Positions 30,352 through 61,126 of a DNA stretch of 64,000 nucleotides are shown here, piece after piece (the stretch's first letter is position 1; each line of letters starts with the position of its first letter). Below the pieces are notes generated by a model. That model saw only the letters and a program-made list of their open reading frames with translations, was not told the DNA's origin and searched no databases. The translations under genes were made by a program, and so were the position numbers. Source of the stretch: a virus. The stretch is taken from IMG/VR virus record IMGVR_UViG_3300045049_000339, positions 1 to 64,000 of that record, one strand, 5' to 3'.

Positions 30352-30532
30352 GGGCCTGGCTGGTCGAGTCCCCTCGCGGAGGGTTCGGAAGACCTCTTGC
30401 GATTCGCTTCCGTGTTGGCGCACGGATTAGCCAAGCGAACATTCCGAGGCAAGCGGAGTGGGGGCAGACGCCTCCGGCCACGGAAGCTGTCCTGCTGCTA
30501 CAGGACAACGGGTTCGAATCCCGTCAGGTCCA
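30352..30532 (+). ncRNA. 181-nt tRNA-ended structured RNA with Ala identity (G3-U70, A73)
   Basis: GGGCCTG/CAGGTCC-A acceptor, perfect T arm acggg-TTCGAAT-cccgt, interior of at least 5 hairpins. Confidence 0.7.
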
Positions 30533-49744: not shown

Positions 49745-49862
49745 GGACGGAGTGGATGCGTCGGCCGGTTCGAGTCCGGTCATCCCCAGGGATGGGGGTC
49801 TGGCTGCGGCCAGCAAATAGGGCGACGGCCCGCGCAGAGGGGTTCGACTCCCCTCCCGTCCA
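49745..49862 (+). ncRNA. tRNA-ended RNA with two T-loop arms
   Basis: GGACGG/CCGTCC-A ends; ggccgg-TTCGAGT-ccggtc and agggg-TTCGACT-cccct. Confidence 0.55.
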
Positions 49863-51682: not shown

Positions 51683-52144
51683 GTGCGGAAAATGAACGAT
51701 CTGATCAACGCCTACTACTTCGACTTCCAGGGCACTCTCGTTGACGTGCGCGGAATCCGTCACCTCTTGGAGACCACCCCCAAGCGGTACGACTCGTTCC
51801 ACTACGCCACGGCAAGCTGCCCGCCGATCTCGTGGGTGGCGTCCGAGGCCCGCAGGGCGCATGAAGAGGGCTTCGCGGTGCTCCTGGGCACCGGTATGAC
51901 CGAGCGCTTCCGGCCCCTGGTGAACTTCTGGCTGGCCAGCCACGAGGTGCATGTGGACGACCTCCAGATGCGCCCCGACGATGACTTCTGCAAGGACTTC
52001 ATCCTGAAGAACCGCATGCTGAGGCGGTGGCAGAACACTCACCGCTTCGTTCACGCGTACGACGACAACCCGGCCGTGATCGAGCACGTCTGGGCAGCAG
52101 CGAATATCCCGCACACGACCGTGCCGGGATGGGGAGAAGGATAG
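51683..52144 (+). CDS. HAD-family phosphatase (PNKP 3'-phosphatase-like), variant motif I
   Basis: YFDFQGTLVDV...GTG..E...LQMRPDDD...D...K...AYDDNPAVI..W. Confidence 0.75.
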   Translation: MRKMNDLINAYYFDFQGTLVDVRGIRHLLETTPKRYDSFHYATASCPPISWVASEARRAHEEGFAVLLGTGMTERFRPLVNFWLASHEVHVDDLQMRPDDDFCKDFILKNRMLRRWQNTHRFVHAYDDNPAVIEHVWAAANIPHTTVPGWGEG

Positions 52145-53453: not shown

Positions 53454-53527
53454 CGGCGCGTAGCTCAGCCTGGTAGAGCACTGGTCTGATAAACCAGCGG
53501 TCGATGGTTCAAATCCATCCGCGTCGA
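53454..53527 (+). tRNA. tRNA-Ile(GAT)
   Basis: cggcgcg/cgcgtcg, ctggt-CTGATAA-accag. Confidence 0.92.
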
Positions 53528-53583
53528 CTAGACAGACACTCCCAAGTCTGCTACAGTAAGTAGCAGTTGAGGAAAGAGGAAGC

Positions 53584-54336
53584 ATGAAGCTCCACCAGCT
53601 CATTGCGAAGCAGGGCAAGGTCGCCGCACGCGTGACCAACGCCGCCAGCGTCATCCACAAGGCGTCGCAGAAGCCCGCTCTGTTCACGGGCGTCAGCATC
53701 ACCTACGAGCCGCTGGCCACCAACGAGAACGACGTCTCCGCGCAGAAGCCGCCGGAGGGCAACTCCGTCCAGCTCTACGCGACCAAGGAGCTGGGCAAGC
53801 TCCGCGAGCTGCTCACCGAGTTGTACGACGTCAACGCGACGCGCGACTGGTCGAACATGGTCGCCCGTGGCACCGTCAAGGTCGGTGACAAGGTCATCCT
53901 CTCGGACGTGCCGGTCCCGTTCCTGCTGTTCCTCAAGCTGGAGCTGAACCGCCTCCGCACCGAGTTCTCCGCCATCCCGGTCCTGGACCCCTCCAAGGAC
54001 TGGAAGGTGGACACGGAGAACGGCGGCTACAAGACCGAGACCACCTGGCAGCACAGCACCCGGCGCGTCAAGAAGGTGCTGGAGCGCTCCCCGGCCACGG
54101 ACAAGCACCAGGCCGTGACGGAGGTCTACGAGGAGGAAGTGCCGGTCGCGAGGAAGGAGACCACCAACTTCTCCGGCGCCCTGAGCCGCGTGGACCGCGA
54201 TGCCCTGATCCGCCAGGTCGACCTGCTCTTCGACGCCGTCACCGAGGCGGTCGAGGAGGCCAACACGGTCGAGGTCGTGGACATGTCCGTCGGCAAGCCC
54301 ATCTTCGACTTCCTTCTGGCCCCGCTGACCCGCTAG
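53584..54336 (+). CDS. conserved hypothetical helical protein (recalled as DUF7873-like, unverified)
   Basis: MKLHQLIA...QKPALFTGVSITYEP...D.NATRDW.N..A...VPVPFLLFL...ATDKHQA...FSGAL...A.EEAN; promoter TAGACA(53529)-N17-TACAGT. Confidence 0.8.
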   Translation: MKLHQLIAKQGKVAARVTNAASVIHKASQKPALFTGVSITYEPLATNENDVSAQKPPEGNSVQLYATKELGKLRELLTELYDVNATRDWSNMVARGTVKVGDKVILSDVPVPFLLFLKLELNRLRTEFSAIPVLDPSKDWKVDTENGGYKTETTWQHSTRRVKKVLERSPATDKHQAVTEVYEEEVPVARKETTNFSGALSRVDRDALIRQVDLLFDAVTEAVEEANTVEVVDMSVGKPIFDFLLAPLTR

Positions 54337-54461
54337 GGTCTCAAGAACTGGTGCTCCGGGTGCACGGGTCCTAGTAAGACGGATCGGCCCTTGTTTGTCC
54401 AGCGGTGGGGTTCACTGACCGCCTGGAGCACCTCCACAGACTCCCGGTTGAGCGACCGGGT

Positions 54462-54713
54462 CTGCACCCGCAGGGTGCGGAAAGCTAACAACTGAATATC
54501 AACATCAGCCGCCGTCGCAACGGTGGCATCAAGCTGAAGCTCTCGCTCAAGCTGAAGCGTCTCGGCAAGGCGTTGATCGAAGTGCGCTGTCCCATCAGGA
54601 GACGTCGGTTCGAATCCGACTCAGGGGACTACGATCCCTGGTGGTGTAGTGGAAGCATTGCCTGGTTTCTCAAATCAAGGCAGCGCCCACCGTGCAACGT
54701 CAGACCGCAGAAT
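54462..54713 (+). ncRNA. YrlA-like permuted tRNA-mimic RNA with hexamer-repeat 5' extension
   Basis: T arm (54604-54620), closed acceptor hairpin (54621-54641), D arm, all enclosed by atcagg/cctggt, gcgctgtc/ggcagcgc and ggcgttg/caacgtc. Confidence 0.75.
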
Positions 54714-54716
54714 GAC

Positions 54717-54790
54717 ATTGGAATAGCGCAGCTTGGCAGCGCGTCAGTCTCTGGTACTGAAGATCGTCGGTTCAAATCCGACTTCCAAAA
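54717..54790 (+). tRNA. tRNA-Gln(CTG)
   Basis: ttggaa/ttccaa, tcagt-CTCTGGT-actga, T arm gtcgg-TTCAAAT-ccgac; 1:72 A-A mismatch. Confidence 0.8.
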
Positions 54791-54834
54791 ACATTCTATG
54801 GGTGGTCCCCGGAGGTTACCGGGGGCCACCTCCC

Positions 54835-58670: not shown

Positions 58671-58832
58671 TGGGTGTCGGAGGAACCGGGGTAAGGAACA
58701 CGGTTACTTCATTTGACTGGATATCAAAAGGTTGTGGGTTCGAGTCCCACCGGCTCCACTTGTGGGGCTGTAGCTCAATCGGTAGAGAAAACGTGCCCGA
58801 GTTCACTTTGATATCGGTTCCCTCGACACCCA
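58671..58832 (+). ncRNA. Y-RNA-like unit 1 (permuted cloverleaf, loop CTGGATA)
   Basis: terminal stem, GGGGTA, CGGTTACTTC, anticodon arm, T arm, closed acceptor, D arm, TTTGATATC. Confidence 0.85.
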
Positions 58833-58839
58833 CAGACTT

Positions 58840-58995
58840 CCTGTCAGGGGTACAGGCAACGGCTACTTCGCTTCGAAATGCGGGTATCTGTGCAAACAGA
58901 GTGCGGGTTCGAATCCCGTCCGGCTCTTCGCTGAGTCGGTAGACGAATTGGCAAAGTCACCTACGTATCCGATGCCGACTTAGACATCTGACAGG
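58840..58995 (+). ncRNA. Y-RNA-like unit 2 (class II permuted cloverleaf, loop TTCGAAAT)
   Basis: cctgtcag/ctgacagg, GGGGTA, CGGCTACTTC, variable arm tctgt-gcaa-acaga, T arm, acceptor hairpin, D arm. Confidence 0.85.
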
Positions 58996-59007
58996 GCTAA
59001 CTTCATA

Positions 59008-59149
59008 TCTGTCCGGGGTACAGGCTGCGGTTACTTCACCTGTTAAGTGAGAGGTCGCAGGTTCGAATCCTGTCGTGGGGTGATAAGCCCCATGTAGCTC
59101 AGTTTGGGAGAGCGCTAACGTTCCCGCTGCCGCTTCGATATCGGACAGA
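59008..59149 (+). ncRNA. Y-RNA-like unit 3 (permuted tRNA-Asn-like, loop CTGTTAA)
   Basis: tctgtccg/cggacaga, GGGGTA, CGGTTACTTC, ttcac-CTGTTAA-gtgag, T arm, cgtgggg/ccccatg, gctc/gagc D arm. Confidence 0.88.
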
Positions 59150-59164
59150 ACACACAAACTTCAT

Positions 59165-59305
59165 AGCTGCCTGGGGTAAAGACAACGGTTACTTCCATGC
59201 GGAGGAGGTAGCGCAGGTTCGAATCCTGCCGGGGGCCTACGGGCTCCTGTCGTCTAGCGGCCCAGGACGCCTACGTTTCCGTTATCGCTTTGATATCAGG
59301 CAGCT
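59165..59305 (+). ncRNA. Y-RNA-like unit 4 (permuted cloverleaf, loop ATGCGGA)
   Basis: agctgcctg/caggcagct, same conserved boxes, Glu-type D arm tcgtctagcggcccaggac. Confidence 0.85.
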
Positions 59306-59306
59306 T

Positions 59307-59400
59307 GCAGAACCCATCACCGGGGTACTGCTCACGGTTACTTCACCCTTCAAAGATGAAAAAACACCGTGAGCGCTCTGAAATCGGTGGTGGGTTCTGC
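59307..59400 (+). ncRNA. Y-RNA-like unit 5 (minimal, single stem-loop CTTCAAA)
   Basis: gcagaacccatcaccg/cggtggtgggttctgc, GGGGTA, CGGTTACTTC, CTGAAATC; no T, D or acceptor arm. Confidence 0.8.
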
Positions 59401-59443: not shown

Positions 59444-61126
59444 ATGGCCAAGTTTAACCAGAAGACCCGTACCTGGGAGAACCAGGGAGGTTCGGCCTTT
59501 CCCGCCGCAGGAACGAAGCGGCAGACCACCACGACCACGAACCACACCGGCCGTGCCGTGTGGAACCTGGACGACAAGACCAACCTGTTCTTCCGCGCCA
59601 CGTCCGCCTTCGCCGGTCAGGACACGTACTACGAGAAAGGCGCCAAGCGCGACGCCGAGGCCATCGCCTTGGTCCGAAAGCTCGCTATCGGCGACTGGGA
59701 CTGGACGGCGAAGTTCCTCGTCTGGCTGCGCGCCGAGGGCAACATGCGCACCGCGCCGGTCATGCTGGCTGTCGAGGCAGTTCGTGCACGCCTGGAGAAG
59801 AAGCTGCACCCGGCTGCCGGTGAGATGTCTCACCGTGCGCTCATCGCGGCTGTTCTCCAGCGCGCGGATGAGCCGGGCGAGATGCTCGCCTACTACGAGA
59901 ACGTCGTCGGCCGCACCATGCCGAAGGCGATCAAGCGTGGTATCGGTGACGCGGCCAAGCGCATGTACAACGAGCGCAACTTCCTGCGGTACGACAGTTC
60001 GTCCAAGGCCATCCGTTTCGGCGGCGTCGCCGAGATGGCTCAGATGCCGAAGACGCACGGCTGGCAGTCCGACCTGATCACCTACGCCATTGGTGAGCAG
60101 CACCACCGTGAGCAGGACATCCCTGACACGTTGGCGGCACTTCGTGCACGCAATGAGCTGAACAAGATGGACGCCAGCGACCGTCACGTTTTCGCGAAGA
60201 GCGCACTGGGCGGCCACATCATCAACCGCACCAAGCTGGACCTGGCCATGGCCGGGCAGTGGGAGTGGTTCATGAGTTGGCTCGGTGATGCGAAGGGTGC
60301 CAAGGCCATCACGACGAAGGAGAAGTGGACGTTCGCCGCCCAGCGCATGGGCATCATGGCGGTCGTCCGCAACCTCCGGAACTTCGACGAGGCCGGTCTC
60401 AAGACGGGCGACAGCATCGTCACCGAGATCAGTGGTCGGCTCACGAACGAGGAGCAGATCGCGAAGTCCCGCATGTTCCCGTTCCGGTTCTTCACGGCGC
60501 ACTTGCAGCTCAAGTCCGTCACGTGGGCGGCCGGTCTGGAGGTGGCGCTTCAGCACTCGCTCCAGAACCTTCCGGAGCTGCCGGGCCGGACGCTGATCCT
60601 CGTCGACACCTCGGGGTCGATGCAGCAGAAGCTCTCGGCCAAGTCCGAGATGTCCTACGCCCAGGCCGCCGCACTGTTCGGCTGTGCCCTGAAGATCAAG
60701 AACCCGGACGGGGTCAACCTGTGGGGGTTCGCCGACGGGCAGTTCGAGGCGCAGGCCACCACGGGTCACAGCGTTCTGCGCTGTGCCGAGGAGTTCTGCC
60801 GCCAGAACGGCCTGGTCGGTCACGGAACGCAGATGGAGGCGGCCGTCCGTGCCACGTACGCGGGGCACGACCGAGTCATCATCATCTCCGACATGCAGGC
60901 GTTCCCGACCGGCGGTTACAGCCGGTACGGGTACAGCTACATGACCGGTGACGTCGCTGGGGCTGTTCCGGCGCACATCCCGGTATACGGTTTCAACCTG
61001 GCCAGCGGCTCCACCACACCGCTGGGCAAGGGCAACCGGCACAGCCTTGGTGGCCTCTCGGATGTGACGTTCAAGCTGATCCCTCAGCTTGAGAAGGTCG
61101 GCCGGGGTTCGTGGCCCTGGGAGTAA
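59444..61126 (+). CDS. rsr: Ro60/TROVE domain ribonucleoprotein with C-terminal vWA domain
   Basis: QDTYYE, LRAEGNMRTAP, QRADEPGEMLAYY, PKAIKRGI.DA, MAVVRNLRNFDEAG, KSRMFPFRF, TLILVDTSGSM, IIISDMQ; RBS AGGAGG. Confidence 0.95.
   Translation: MAKFNQKTRTWENQGGSAFPAAGTKRQTTTTTNHTGRAVWNLDDKTNLFFRATSAFAGQDTYYEKGAKRDAEAIALVRKLAIGDWDWTAKFLVWLRAEGNMRTAPVMLAVEAVRARLEKKLHPAAGEMSHRALIAAVLQRADEPGEMLAYYENVVGRTMPKAIKRGIGDAAKRMYNERNFLRYDSSSKAIRFGGVAEMAQMPKTHGWQSDLITYAIGEQHHREQDIPDTLAALRARNELNKMDASDRHVFAKSALGGHIINRTKLDLAMAGQWEWFMSWLGDAKGAKAITTKEKWTFAAQRMGIMAVVRNLRNFDEAGLKTGDSIVTEISGRLTNEEQIAKSRMFPFRFFTAHLQLKSVTWAAGLEVALQHSLQNLPELPGRTLILVDTSGSMQQKLSAKSEMSYAQAAALFGCALKIKNPDGVNLWGFADGQFEAQATTGHSVLRCAEEFCRQNGLVGHGTQMEAAVRATYAGHDRVIIISDMQAFPTGGYSRYGYSYMTGDVAGAVPAHIPVYGFNLASGSTTPLGKGNRHSLGGLSDVTFKLIPQLEKVGRGSWPWE

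What the first reader, a model, noticed from the sequence alone, without database searches (positions are those of the whole stretch)
53529..54713. Conserved helical protein followed by a permuted tRNA-mimic RNA with a repeat leader: candidate second RNP system
Seen: a promoter, a 250-aa protein gene, then hairpins, a single-stranded A-rich repeat tract and a long stem (cgg/ccg, ggcgttg/caacgtc, gcgctgtc/ggcagcgc, atcagg/cctggt). The stem is capped by T arm, closed acceptor hairpin and D arm, in that order. Established: this order, with the anticodon stem replaced by a long helix, is the YrlA Y-RNA topology. ATCGAAGTG at about 54576 resembles the YrlA GNCGAAN(0-1)G box. However, the RNA lies about 4.7 kb from rsr, lacks the GGGGTA/TTACTTC boxes of the rsr-linked array and has an extra 5' module. 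Inference: the upstream protein is its own partner, an oligomer binding the repeats while the tRNA mimic recruits or decoys another factor, possibly bridging to Ro60.
Basis: partly seen in the sequence, partly recalled or inferred. Interest (0 to 1): 0.85.

Follow-up and report, generated by a model that had tools for sequence, protein, structure and literature searches.

The report
Phage tRNA-mimic RNA paired with DUF7873
A phage gene of unknown function (DUF7873) is followed by a folded RNA capped by a back-to-front tRNA look-alike, a gene-RNA pair kept together in many phages and bacteria, mostly without Ro60, and here it sits in the same phage as a separate Ro60/Y-RNA set.

Summary
53584-54336 encodes a DUF7873 protein. 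The non-coding stretch after it carries hairpins, six-letter repeat tracts and a long interrupted helix capped by T arm, closed 7-bp acceptor hairpin and D arm.

A covariance model built from 27 other loci, without this window, matches 54567-54701 end to end (60.5 bits, E 1.3e-13). The model finds the RNA just downstream of the gene, on the same strand:
- 74 of 76 viral loci
- 80 of 80 bacterial loci
- 55 of 55 gene-bearing Streptomyces species, against 1 remnant in 46 gene-less ones

Two long-range helices that played no part in choosing the sequences covary strongly.

Only 3 of 23 near-complete phage genomes with the pair also encode Ro60. In all three, and in this window, the two genes lie within about 5 kb on one strand. 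The window's rsr-linked units match Rfam YrlA weakly; this RNA does not.

This copy is a one-headed variant. The first head is replaced by a plain hairpin, and a tRNA-Gln follows the second.

Protein-RNA binding is inferred, not shown; a homodimer is predicted. I found the pair in no paper searched and it is absent from Rfam 15. This scan has noted the same family many times on other DNA.

The parts
53529..53557 (+). promoter-like site TAGACA-17-TACAGT
   Evidence: consensus scan, 1 found against 0.3 expected; weak
53584..54336 (+). DUF7873 protein gene (250 aa, stop included)
   Evidence: Pfam PF25283 E 1.5e-67; single copy in the 107.7-kb phage record; AF2 model pLDDT 91.8; homodimer predicted
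54350..54432 (+). long hairpin specific to this phage, absent from the closest relative L010
   Evidence: RNAfold; gap in the pairwise alignment with L010
54437..54460 (+). conserved 5' hairpin: hexamer CAGACT, then CCCGG-TTGAGCGA-CCGGG
   Evidence: same element (stem plus GTTGAGCR loop) in L001, L004, L009, L012, L021, L027 and L010
54461..54481 (+). 9-bp hairpin
   Evidence: RNAfold
54482..54506 (+). hexamer tract A (..GAATAT CAACAT..), predicted unpaired
   Evidence: corresponds to the tract before head 1 in two-headed members
54507..54526 (+). plain hairpin GCCGCCG-TCGCAA-CGGTGGC at the place where other members carry tRNA-like head 1
   Evidence: no second covariance-model hit upstream of 54567; L010 has a hairpin at the same place
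54527..54562 (+). hexamer tract B (CAAGCT GAAGCT CTCGCT CAAGCT GAAGCG)
   Evidence: matches the family's tract B around (A/C)T(C/T)GCTC
54567..54701 (+). head-2 domain. Outer helix 54569-75/54695-701; ATCGA box 54576-83; inner helix 54584-91/54679-86; anticodon-stem analogue 54594-99/54661-66; T arm 54604-20; acceptor hairpin 54621-41; D arm 54644-58
   Evidence: model R1, built without the window: 60.5 bits, E 1.3e-13, positions 1-139 of 139; the two long-range helices covary in the family
54717..54790 (+). tRNA-Gln(CUG) lying between the head-2 domain and the closing hairpin; whether it belongs to the RNA is uncertain
   Evidence: ARAGORN and Rfam tRNA 57.9 bits; L010 has a homologous tRNA-like element with an odd anticodon loop at the same place
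54801..54830 (+). 12-bp closing hairpin with no U run
   Evidence: read from the sequence; other members have a hairpin at the same position
58671..59400 (+). context only: rsr-linked array of YrlA-like units, a separate RNA class
   Evidence: four permuted modules; RF02553 at 35, 28, 20 and 17 bits, below the gathering score of 69; R1 matches only the cap in three units and one unit full length at 32.9 bits
59444..61126 (+). context only: Ro60/TROVE gene (rsr)
   Evidence: Pfam TROVE E 6e-11 plus VWA; PHROG 850 RNA-binding protein E 8e-43

Best explanation
The stretch is one expression unit of a near-complete (CheckV estimate 99%) 107.7-kb phage record, probably of a Streptomyces-like host. 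It holds a DUF7873 gene and, just after it, a structured non-coding RNA of about 370-500 nt. Both belong to a widespread, undescribed gene-RNA family.

Shown:
- The RNA is a full-length member of that family.
- Its core is a long interrupted helix carrying a conserved ATCGA box, capped by an anticodon-less, circularly permuted tRNA fold.
- Gene and RNA co-occur almost perfectly in both directions.
- Most carriers lack Ro60.
- This copy has one head instead of two.

Inferred:
- The protein, probably a tightly intertwined homodimer, binds or acts on this RNA. The conserved, apparently single-stranded hexamer tracts are the likeliest contact.
- The 7-bp acceptor stem plus T arm makes the head a substrate for RNase P and for 3' trimming with CCA addition, as shown for M. 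smegmatis YrlA. That would give a nicked RNA that displays a tRNA-like elbow and acceptor end.
- This particle engages some tRNA-recognising factor (processing, repair, a toxin or the ribosome) during infection. It would work in parallel with, not through, the phage's Ro60/Y-RNA set.
For: - Membership: R1 was built from 27 loci without the window and hits 54567-54701 at 60.5 bits, E 1.3e-13, model positions 1-139. It is the only full-length strong hit in the whole phage record.
- Structure: RNAalifold on a plain MAFFT alignment recovers the T, acceptor and D arms. It also recovers two long-range helices that were not used in choosing the sequences. Those helices are 83% paired against 35-42% when partners are slid, with a covariation score of 0.85 against 0.11-0.20, and 0 of 500 shuffles reach the observed values.
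- Linkage in GenBank phages: all 8 examined have an unannotated gap of 340-1160 nt after the gene, holding 1-3 permuted modules.
- Linkage by my module finder: 80 of 88 loci have a module within 1 kb downstream on the gene's strand. That is 150 modules in 85 kb, against 47 in 410 kb elsewhere on that strand and 5 on the opposite strand.
- Linkage by R1: 74 of 76 viral loci and 80 of 80 bacterial loci.
- Streptomyces sample: the gene is in 55 of 101 species. The RNA lies next to it in 55 of 55. Among 46 gene-less genomes there is one truncated remnant.
- Independence from Ro60: TROVE is present in 3 of 23 near-complete phage genomes carrying the pair. L010, the closest relative with the same one-headed layout, has none.
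- Distinct from YrlA: there is no RF02553 match at E up to 10 in 54300-54760, whereas the rsr-linked units do match.
- Processing hint: the linker after the 3' acceptor strand begins NCCA in 29 of 47 first heads and 21 of 47 second heads, and NC in 42 of 47 of each. [quoted passage not shown]
- Dimer: ipSAE 0.72 against 0.00 for the best of 3 controls. The three runs share at least 96% of contacts and the partner's pLDDT is at least 87. The mark was reached by 20 of 30 proteins solved as pairs and 1 of 23 solved as single chains.
Against: - There are no transcript, processing or binding data.
- The protein has no recognisable RNA-binding or catalytic fold. Best matches are 3kdq at Z 9.1 with rmsd 7.3 A; Foldseek gives nothing at E up to 0.001 in either the PDB or viral libraries.
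- Co-occurrence proves a functional link, not physical binding.
- The loci tested were the best matches to this protein (about 35-43% identity), so very distant relatives are thinly sampled. Klebsiella and Vibrio phage members score only 42 and 28 bits with R1.
- This copy lacks the first head and the CTTAAACG box. Its acceptor loop reads ACUA, not ACCA.
- A note from a later check of this scan prices the bold 'stable RNP' reading at only 22 in 100.
Confidence: 0.6

Rival explanations
1. It is simply one more YrlA-type Y RNA that serves the phage's own Ro60, and its position after DUF7873 is incidental.
For: It has the same T arm, acceptor hairpin and D arm cap on a long helix. The ATCGAAGTG box is close to GNCGAAN0-1G (PMC4201824). 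rsr lies 4.7 kb away on the same strand. In all four phages that have both genes, TROVE and DUF7873 are within 5.1 kb.
Against: There is no RF02553 match even at E 10, while the rsr-linked units reach 17-35 bits. 20 of 23 carrier phages lack TROVE. L010, with the same layout, lacks it too. Streptomyces sp. P1-3 has the pair and no TROVE, and in NBC_01340 TROVE lies about 145 kb away. The RNA tracks DUF7873 in 55 of 55 Streptomyces species.
Confidence: 0.1
2. The RNA acts only in cis. It would be a 3' UTR or processing module that uses RNase P and tRNA-processing enzymes to cut, stabilise or regulate the DUF7873 message inside a tRNA array, with no function of its own.
For: It is always on the same strand directly after the gene. 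No intrinsic terminator lies between gene and RNA. It is embedded in tRNA arrays in many phages. Tandem hexamers also occur within 70 nt upstream of the start codon in 23 of 77 loci.
Against: A 350-450 nt RNA with two covarying long-range helices, conserved boxes and one or two complete tRNA elbows is far more than a cleavage signal needs. The same RNA follows the gene in Streptomyces chromosomes, outside any tRNA array. One genome keeps a head-2 remnant without the gene.
Confidence: 0.12
3. It is a tmRNA-like device. The hexamer tracts would be a start-less message (alternating Lys/Arg and Leu/Phe codons) read after the tRNA-like head enters a ribosome.
For: The permuted order matches that of two-piece tmRNA genes. 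The hexamer pattern BARNNT reads as ARN-NTB codons with the variable letters at wobble positions. Encoded NCCA is common.
Against: ARAGORN and Rfam find no tmRNA here. The acceptor stem has C3-G70, not G3-U70. That frame is necessarily open given the pattern, so its openness is not evidence. It has no consistent stop: 30 of 47 loci against 33 and 24 of 47 in the other two frames, and the seventh codon is CAG or TAG interchangeably. In the window the frame runs on through the head. Gordonia phage Phendrix carries a normal tmRNA as well.
Confidence: 0.03

Closest known systems
YrlA-type Y RNAs with Ro60/Rsr (Rfam RF02553; Chen et al. 2014, PMC4201824; Wang et al. 2018, bioRxiv 10.1101/312249)
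   Same: Both have an anticodon-less, permuted tRNA fold (T arm, closed acceptor hairpin, D arm) capping a long helix that carries a conserved box on its 5' strand. Both are encoded next to a protein partner on the same strand and are found in bacteria and actinophages. The M. smegmatis form has a 7-bp acceptor stem that is cut by RNase P and receives CCA.
   Different: The partner gene is DUF7873, unrelated to TROVE. The RNA usually has two heads, plus hexamer tracts and other conserved boxes. It does not match RF02553. Most carriers have no Ro60. In this phage the true YrlA-like units form a separate array next to rsr.
b7a-tRNA with a Band-7 protein (predicted by Burroughs and Aravind 2016, as summarised in bioRxiv 10.1101/312249)
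   Same: Both embody the idea of a tRNA-like RNA that works with a non-Ro protein partner, in RNA-repair or tRNA neighbourhoods.
   Different: b7a-tRNA is described as close to an authentic tRNA, not a permuted cap on a helix. No Band-7 gene is found in this phage. The partner protein is a different family.
Two-piece (permuted) tmRNA
   Same: Gene order is T arm, 3' acceptor strand, CCA, linker, 5' acceptor strand. A long helix stands in for the anticodon stem.
   Different: There is no G3-U70, no tag frame with a stop, and no detection by ARAGORN or Rfam. The family also keeps a full D arm.

Membership tests
DUF7873-linked tRNA-mimic RNA (unnamed; defined here by model R1) | Lies directly downstream of a DUF7873 gene on the same strand | tested here: met
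   The gene ends at 54336 and the RNA core is 54567-54701
DUF7873-linked tRNA-mimic RNA (unnamed; defined here by model R1) | Full-length match to a covariance model built from other members | tested here: met
   60.5 bits, E 1.3e-13, positions 1-139 of 139; the window was not in the seed
DUF7873-linked tRNA-mimic RNA (unnamed; defined here by model R1) | Outer and inner long-range helices flanking an ATCGA box | tested here: met
   GGCGUUG/CAACGUC, ATCGAAGU, GCGCUGUC/GGCAGCGC; the helices covary across the family
DUF7873-linked tRNA-mimic RNA (unnamed; defined here by model R1) | Tandem hexamer tracts (BARNNT) before and after the position of head 1 | tested here: met
   GAATAT CAACAT at 54494 and CAAGCT GAAGCT at 54530. 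72 of 77 loci have at least 2 tandem hexamers downstream of the gene
DUF7873-linked tRNA-mimic RNA (unnamed; defined here by model R1) | Two tRNA-like heads | tested here: not met
   There is only one head. A plain hairpin at 54507-26 replaces head 1. The same is true of L010, and roughly one locus in eight shows a single R1 hit. This copy is therefore a variant
DUF7873-linked tRNA-mimic RNA (unnamed; defined here by model R1) | CTTAAACG box on the 3' side of the internal loop | tested here: not met
   The window has CCACCGUG, as do the L012, L017 and L027 subgroup
YrlA (RF02553) | Match to the Rfam model at its gathering score (69 bits) | tested here: not met
   No hit at E up to 10 in 54300-54760
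YrlA (RF02553) | Cap of T arm, closed acceptor hairpin and D arm on a long helix | tested here: met
YrlA (RF02553) | GNCGAAN0-1G motif | tested here: inconclusive
   ATCGAAGUG has A where the motif has G. The family consensus is RATCGAMNG
YrlA (RF02553) | Within about 4 kb of Ro60 on the same strand (PMC4201824) | tested here: not met
   The strand is the same but the distance is 4.7 kb, with a separate array directly upstream of rsr
YrlA (RF02553) | Bound by Ro60/Rsr | not testable with these tools
   needs immunoprecipitation
tmRNA (one- or two-piece) | G3-U70 alanine identity, a tag frame ending in a stop, and detection by ARAGORN or Rfam | tested here: not met
   The pair is C3-G70. ARAGORN and Rfam give no tmRNA call. 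There is no consistent stop
Pfam DUF7873 (PF25283) | Profile match above the gathering score over the full length | tested here: met
   228.3 bits against a cut-off of 27; protein residues 2-245 on profile positions 3-242 of 244

The most novel reading that the evidence does not exclude
A DUF7873 dimer and its RNA form a Ro60-independent particle. After RNase P cutting and CCA completion, its head or heads display genuine tRNA elbows and acceptor ends. The particle acts as a decoy, sponge or adaptor for enzymes that attack or process tRNA ends during phage-host conflict. Phages place it beside Ro60/Y-RNA and RNA-repair genes because the two particles cover different kinds of RNA damage.
Probability: 0.2. 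Interest if true: 0.9.

Novelty: new variant of a known kind. Interest (0 to 1): 0.75.

Why it matters
tRNA-mimicking Y RNAs have so far been tied to Ro60. Here the same kind of head sits on a different RNA scaffold, coupled to an unrelated, uncharacterised protein.

This phage carries both systems a few kilobases apart. That makes it a natural test bed for asking whether the two are redundant, cooperative or separate.

The work also gives DUF7873 a concrete, testable hypothesis. It points as well to unannotated RNA genes sitting in gaps that phage annotators currently leave empty inside tRNA arrays.

Tried and rejected
- Rfam at gathering and at E up to 10 gave nothing in the RNA beyond tRNAs and one chance miRNA hit. 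Ten related loci also gave nothing.
- PHROGs, PADLOC and NCBIfam have no family for the protein.
- Fold searches gave no convincing match. Foldseek found nothing at E up to 0.001 in the PDB or viral libraries. VIA-align's best was 3kdq, an unknown protein, at Z 9.1 with rmsd 7.3 A. The ESM Atlas returned only DUF7873 clusters and unnamed neighbours.
- A PDB profile search gave only a non-significant RelA/SpoT stretch (E 0.13). I do not use it.
- Full-text search found no paper that mentions DUF7873.
- Tract A to tract B pairing: RNAalifold on 28 two-headed loci predicts only the arms of head 1 and leaves the tracts unpaired.
- The reading of the hexamers as a coding or tmRNA-like frame is rejected.
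- Conserved neighbours: in Streptomyces a nucleotidyltransferase lies upstream in 15 of 80 loci and an unknown protein downstream in 27 of 80. Neither occurs in phages, so I read this as shared ancestry of the loci, not as a partnership.
- Band-7 is not found in this phage.
- My module finder also flagged 49764-49821 (6 of 7 acceptor pairs). R1 gives it no support, so I dropped it.
- A scan of metagenome contigs for close relatives returned only one truncated distant hit.
Hence there are no close-relative contigs and no expression data.

Full report
**Context.** The window is the first 64 kb of a 107.7-kb virus record that CheckV estimates to be 99% complete. It has about 63% G+C and typical phage replication genes: PolA, an SNF2 helicase, a PD-(D/E)XK nuclease, AAA_24 and DUF669. 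From 49.5 to 59 kb there is an island of nine ARAGORN tRNA calls, one of which is probably a mis-call. The island also holds a PNKP-type phosphatase gene at 51683-52144. A Ro60/TROVE gene lies at 59444-61126. The finding sits inside this island, between tRNA-Ile (53454-53528) and tRNA-Gln (54717-54790).

**Checking the observation.** The ORF 53584-54336 encodes a 250-aa protein that matches Pfam DUF7873 over its full length (E 1.5e-67). A promoter-like TAGACA-17-TACAGT lies at 53529-53557 (weak).

The 380 nt after the stop codon contain the following, in order:
- a long hairpin specific to this phage (54350-54432);
- a small hairpin, CCCGG-TTGAGCGA-CCGGG (54443-60), preceded by the hexamer CAGACT (54437-42);
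- a 9-bp hairpin (54461-81);
- a hexamer tract (54482-54506);
- a plain hairpin (54507-26);
- a second hexamer tract (54527-62);

These helices are capped by a canonical T arm (GTCGG-TTCGAAT-CCGAC), a 7-bp acceptor stem closed by ACUACGA, U8, and a D arm with GG. The nucleotides that build a tRNA elbow are in place: G53, T54, T55, C56, A58, C61, G18-G19 and a G15/C48 pair. The only correction is that the 'A-rich tract' is really a run of six-letter repeats.

**What it is.** tblastn of the protein found 68 phage records across Arthrobacter, Gordonia, Rhodococcus, Rhizobium, Klebsiella/Serratia jumbo phages, Vibrio and cyanophages. In all eight that I opened, the gene is followed by an unannotated gap of 340-1160 nt, usually inside a tRNA array. 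Each gap holds one to three permuted tRNA-like modules.

I then fetched 80 IMG/VR loci. A simple module finder gave at least one module within 1 kb downstream in 80 of 88 loci. That is 150 modules in 85 kb, against 47 in 410 kb elsewhere on the same strand and 5 on the opposite strand.

The usual layout is:
1. the 5' hairpin;
2. hexamer tract A;
3. head 1;
4. tract B, around (A/C)T(C/T)GCTC;
5. an ATCGA box;
6. head 2, on a long helix;
7. a CTTAAACG box;
8. a closing hairpin.

**Independent test of structure.** A plain MAFFT alignment of the head-2 region from 29 loci, window included, was folded with RNAalifold. It recovered the three arms and also two long-range helices that had played no part in choosing the sequences. 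For those two helices:

| measure | observed | partners slid by 1-3 columns |
|---|---|---|
| cells paired | 83% | 35-42% |
| covariation score | 0.85 | 0.11-0.20 |

None of 500 shuffles reached the observed values.

**Membership.** I built covariance model R1 from 27 loci with the window left out.
- It hits 54567-54701 end to end at 60.5 bits, E 1.3e-13. This is the only strong full-length hit in the whole phage record.
- It also hits downstream of the gene, always on the gene's strand, in 74 of 76 non-redundant viral loci.
- It hits in 80 of 80 bacterial loci, mostly Streptomyces, plus Kitasatospora and Acidobacteriota and Planctomycetota MAGs.

In an even sample of 101 Streptomyces species, DUF7873 is present in 55. 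All 55 have the RNA next to the gene. Of the 46 gene-less genomes, one keeps a truncated head-2 remnant with no DUF7873 within 2 kb.

**Relation to Ro60 and YrlA.** The window has four clear permuted modules at 58734-59267, directly upstream of rsr.

| RNA | Rfam YrlA (RF02553, gathering score 69) | model R1 |
|---|---|---|
| rsr-linked units | 35, 28, 20 and 17 bits | cap only in three units; one full-length at 32.9 bits |
| DUF7873-linked RNA | no match at E up to 10 | full length, 60.5 bits |

The two classes share the tRNA-like cap and the general YrlA topology, but they are separable.

TROVE is found in only 3 of 23 near-complete phage genomes that carry the pair. Chen et al. searched only TROVE-containing genomes (PMC4201824), which may be why this family was not seen. 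In those three phages, and in the window, TROVE and DUF7873 lie 1-5 kb apart on one strand. I read this as a shared RNA-care neighbourhood, not as dependence. In Streptomyces sp. NBC_01340 the two genes are about 145 kb apart, and Streptomyces sp. P1-3 has no TROVE at all.

**What is special in this window.** The copy has one head. Where other members carry head 1, it has the hairpin GCCGCCG-TCGCAA-CGGTGGC.

L010, which at 42% protein identity is among the closest IMG/VR relatives, comes from a complete 153-kb phage genome without TROVE. It has the same layout. It also has a tRNA-like element, with an odd anticodon loop, homologous to the window's tRNA-Gln and lying at the same place between the head-2 domain and the closing hairpin. 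Whether that tRNA stands in for the lost head is open.

**The protein.** The AF2 model is confident (pLDDT 91.8): long helices packed against two beta-sheets. No solved or viral predicted structure gives a convincing match, and no other family library names it.

A homodimer is predicted: ipSAE 0.72 against 0.00 for the best of 3 controls. The three runs share at least 96% of contacts and the partner's pLDDT is at least 87. The mark was reached by 20 of 30 proteins solved as pairs and by 1 of 23 solved as single chains. The model supports a dimer but does not show one.

Conserved polar residues outside the predicted interface include E58, D135, W140 and the T-D-K-H-P-A-Q hairpin at residues 172-178. 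These are candidates for RNA contact or catalysis.

**Mechanism.**
- Shown: a conserved structured RNA, coupled to the gene in both directions.
- Inferred: the protein binds or acts on it.

The hexamer tracts are conserved in pattern and stay unpaired in consensus folding. They are the most likely protein track.

The linker after the 3' acceptor strand starts NCCA in about half of the heads and NC in 42 of 47. A sealed loop would have no obvious need for that sequence. Together with the 7-bp acceptor stem, it suggests RNase P cleavage and CCA completion, as shown for M. smegmatis YrlA (PMC4201824). What the exposed tRNA-like end then does is unknown.

The reading of the hexamers as a start-less message is not supported.

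**Novelty.** No paper in the searchable library mentions DUF7873, and Rfam 15 has no matching family. The nearest ideas in print are YrlA with Ro60, and the predicted Band-7-associated tRNA (bioRxiv 10.1101/312249). This scan has already noted the same family many times on other DNA (298 notes). My tests here agree with those notes. They add the two-way Streptomyces tally, the side-by-side comparison with a Ro60 array in one phage, and the one-headed variant.

Noticed in passing
window 58671-59400: An array of four to five YrlA-like units lies directly upstream of rsr. Each has GGGGTA...CGGTTACTTC boxes. Four carry a permuted tRNA cap. The last unit (about 59307-59400) has the boxes but no cap, so it may be YrlB-like.
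   Followed up: partly
window 58682-58759: ARAGORN calls a tRNA-SeC here, and Rfam gives tRNA at only 31 bits. This is probably a mis-call on the first rsr-linked Y-RNA unit.
   Followed up: partly
window 54717-54790 and L010:3555-3628: A tRNA-Gln(CUG) sits between the head-2 domain and the closing hairpin. In L010 the homologous element has an 8-nt anticodon loop, which hints that it may not be a decoding tRNA.
   Followed up: partly
window 51683-52144: A PNKP-type phosphatase (polynucleotide kinase family) gene lies in the same tRNA island, so RNA-repair functions cluster here.
   Followed up: no
window 30508-30524: An isolated T-arm-like hit of model R1 (13 bits), far from any called tRNA.
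   Followed up: no
L169 (G040:C34:3000-5600), RNA at about 1970-2105: One Streptomyces genome keeps a head-2 domain and closing hairpin (78 bits) with no DUF7873 gene. The upstream half appears to have been deleted.
   Followed up: yes
L059 and L061, about 250-560 nt after the gene: The acceptor hairpin of head 1 carries an insertion of about 270 nt between its two strands.
   Followed up: no
L003 (Rhodococcus phage NiceHouse) 5368-6240: A Band-7-like membrane protein gene lies about 640 nt downstream of the DUF7873-RNA unit. This recalls the predicted Band-7/tRNA-like pairing in the literature.
   Followed up: no
L004 (Gordonia phage Phendrix) 2063-2591: A standard tmRNA (89 bits) lies about 1.4 kb upstream of the DUF7873 gene, in the same phage tRNA island as the DUF7873-RNA unit.
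   Followed up: no
77 loci, the 70 nt before the DUF7873 start codon: Tandem hexamers of the same BARNNT pattern occur in the 5' leader of 23 of 77 loci. They are not seen in this window under the strict pattern.
   Followed up: partly
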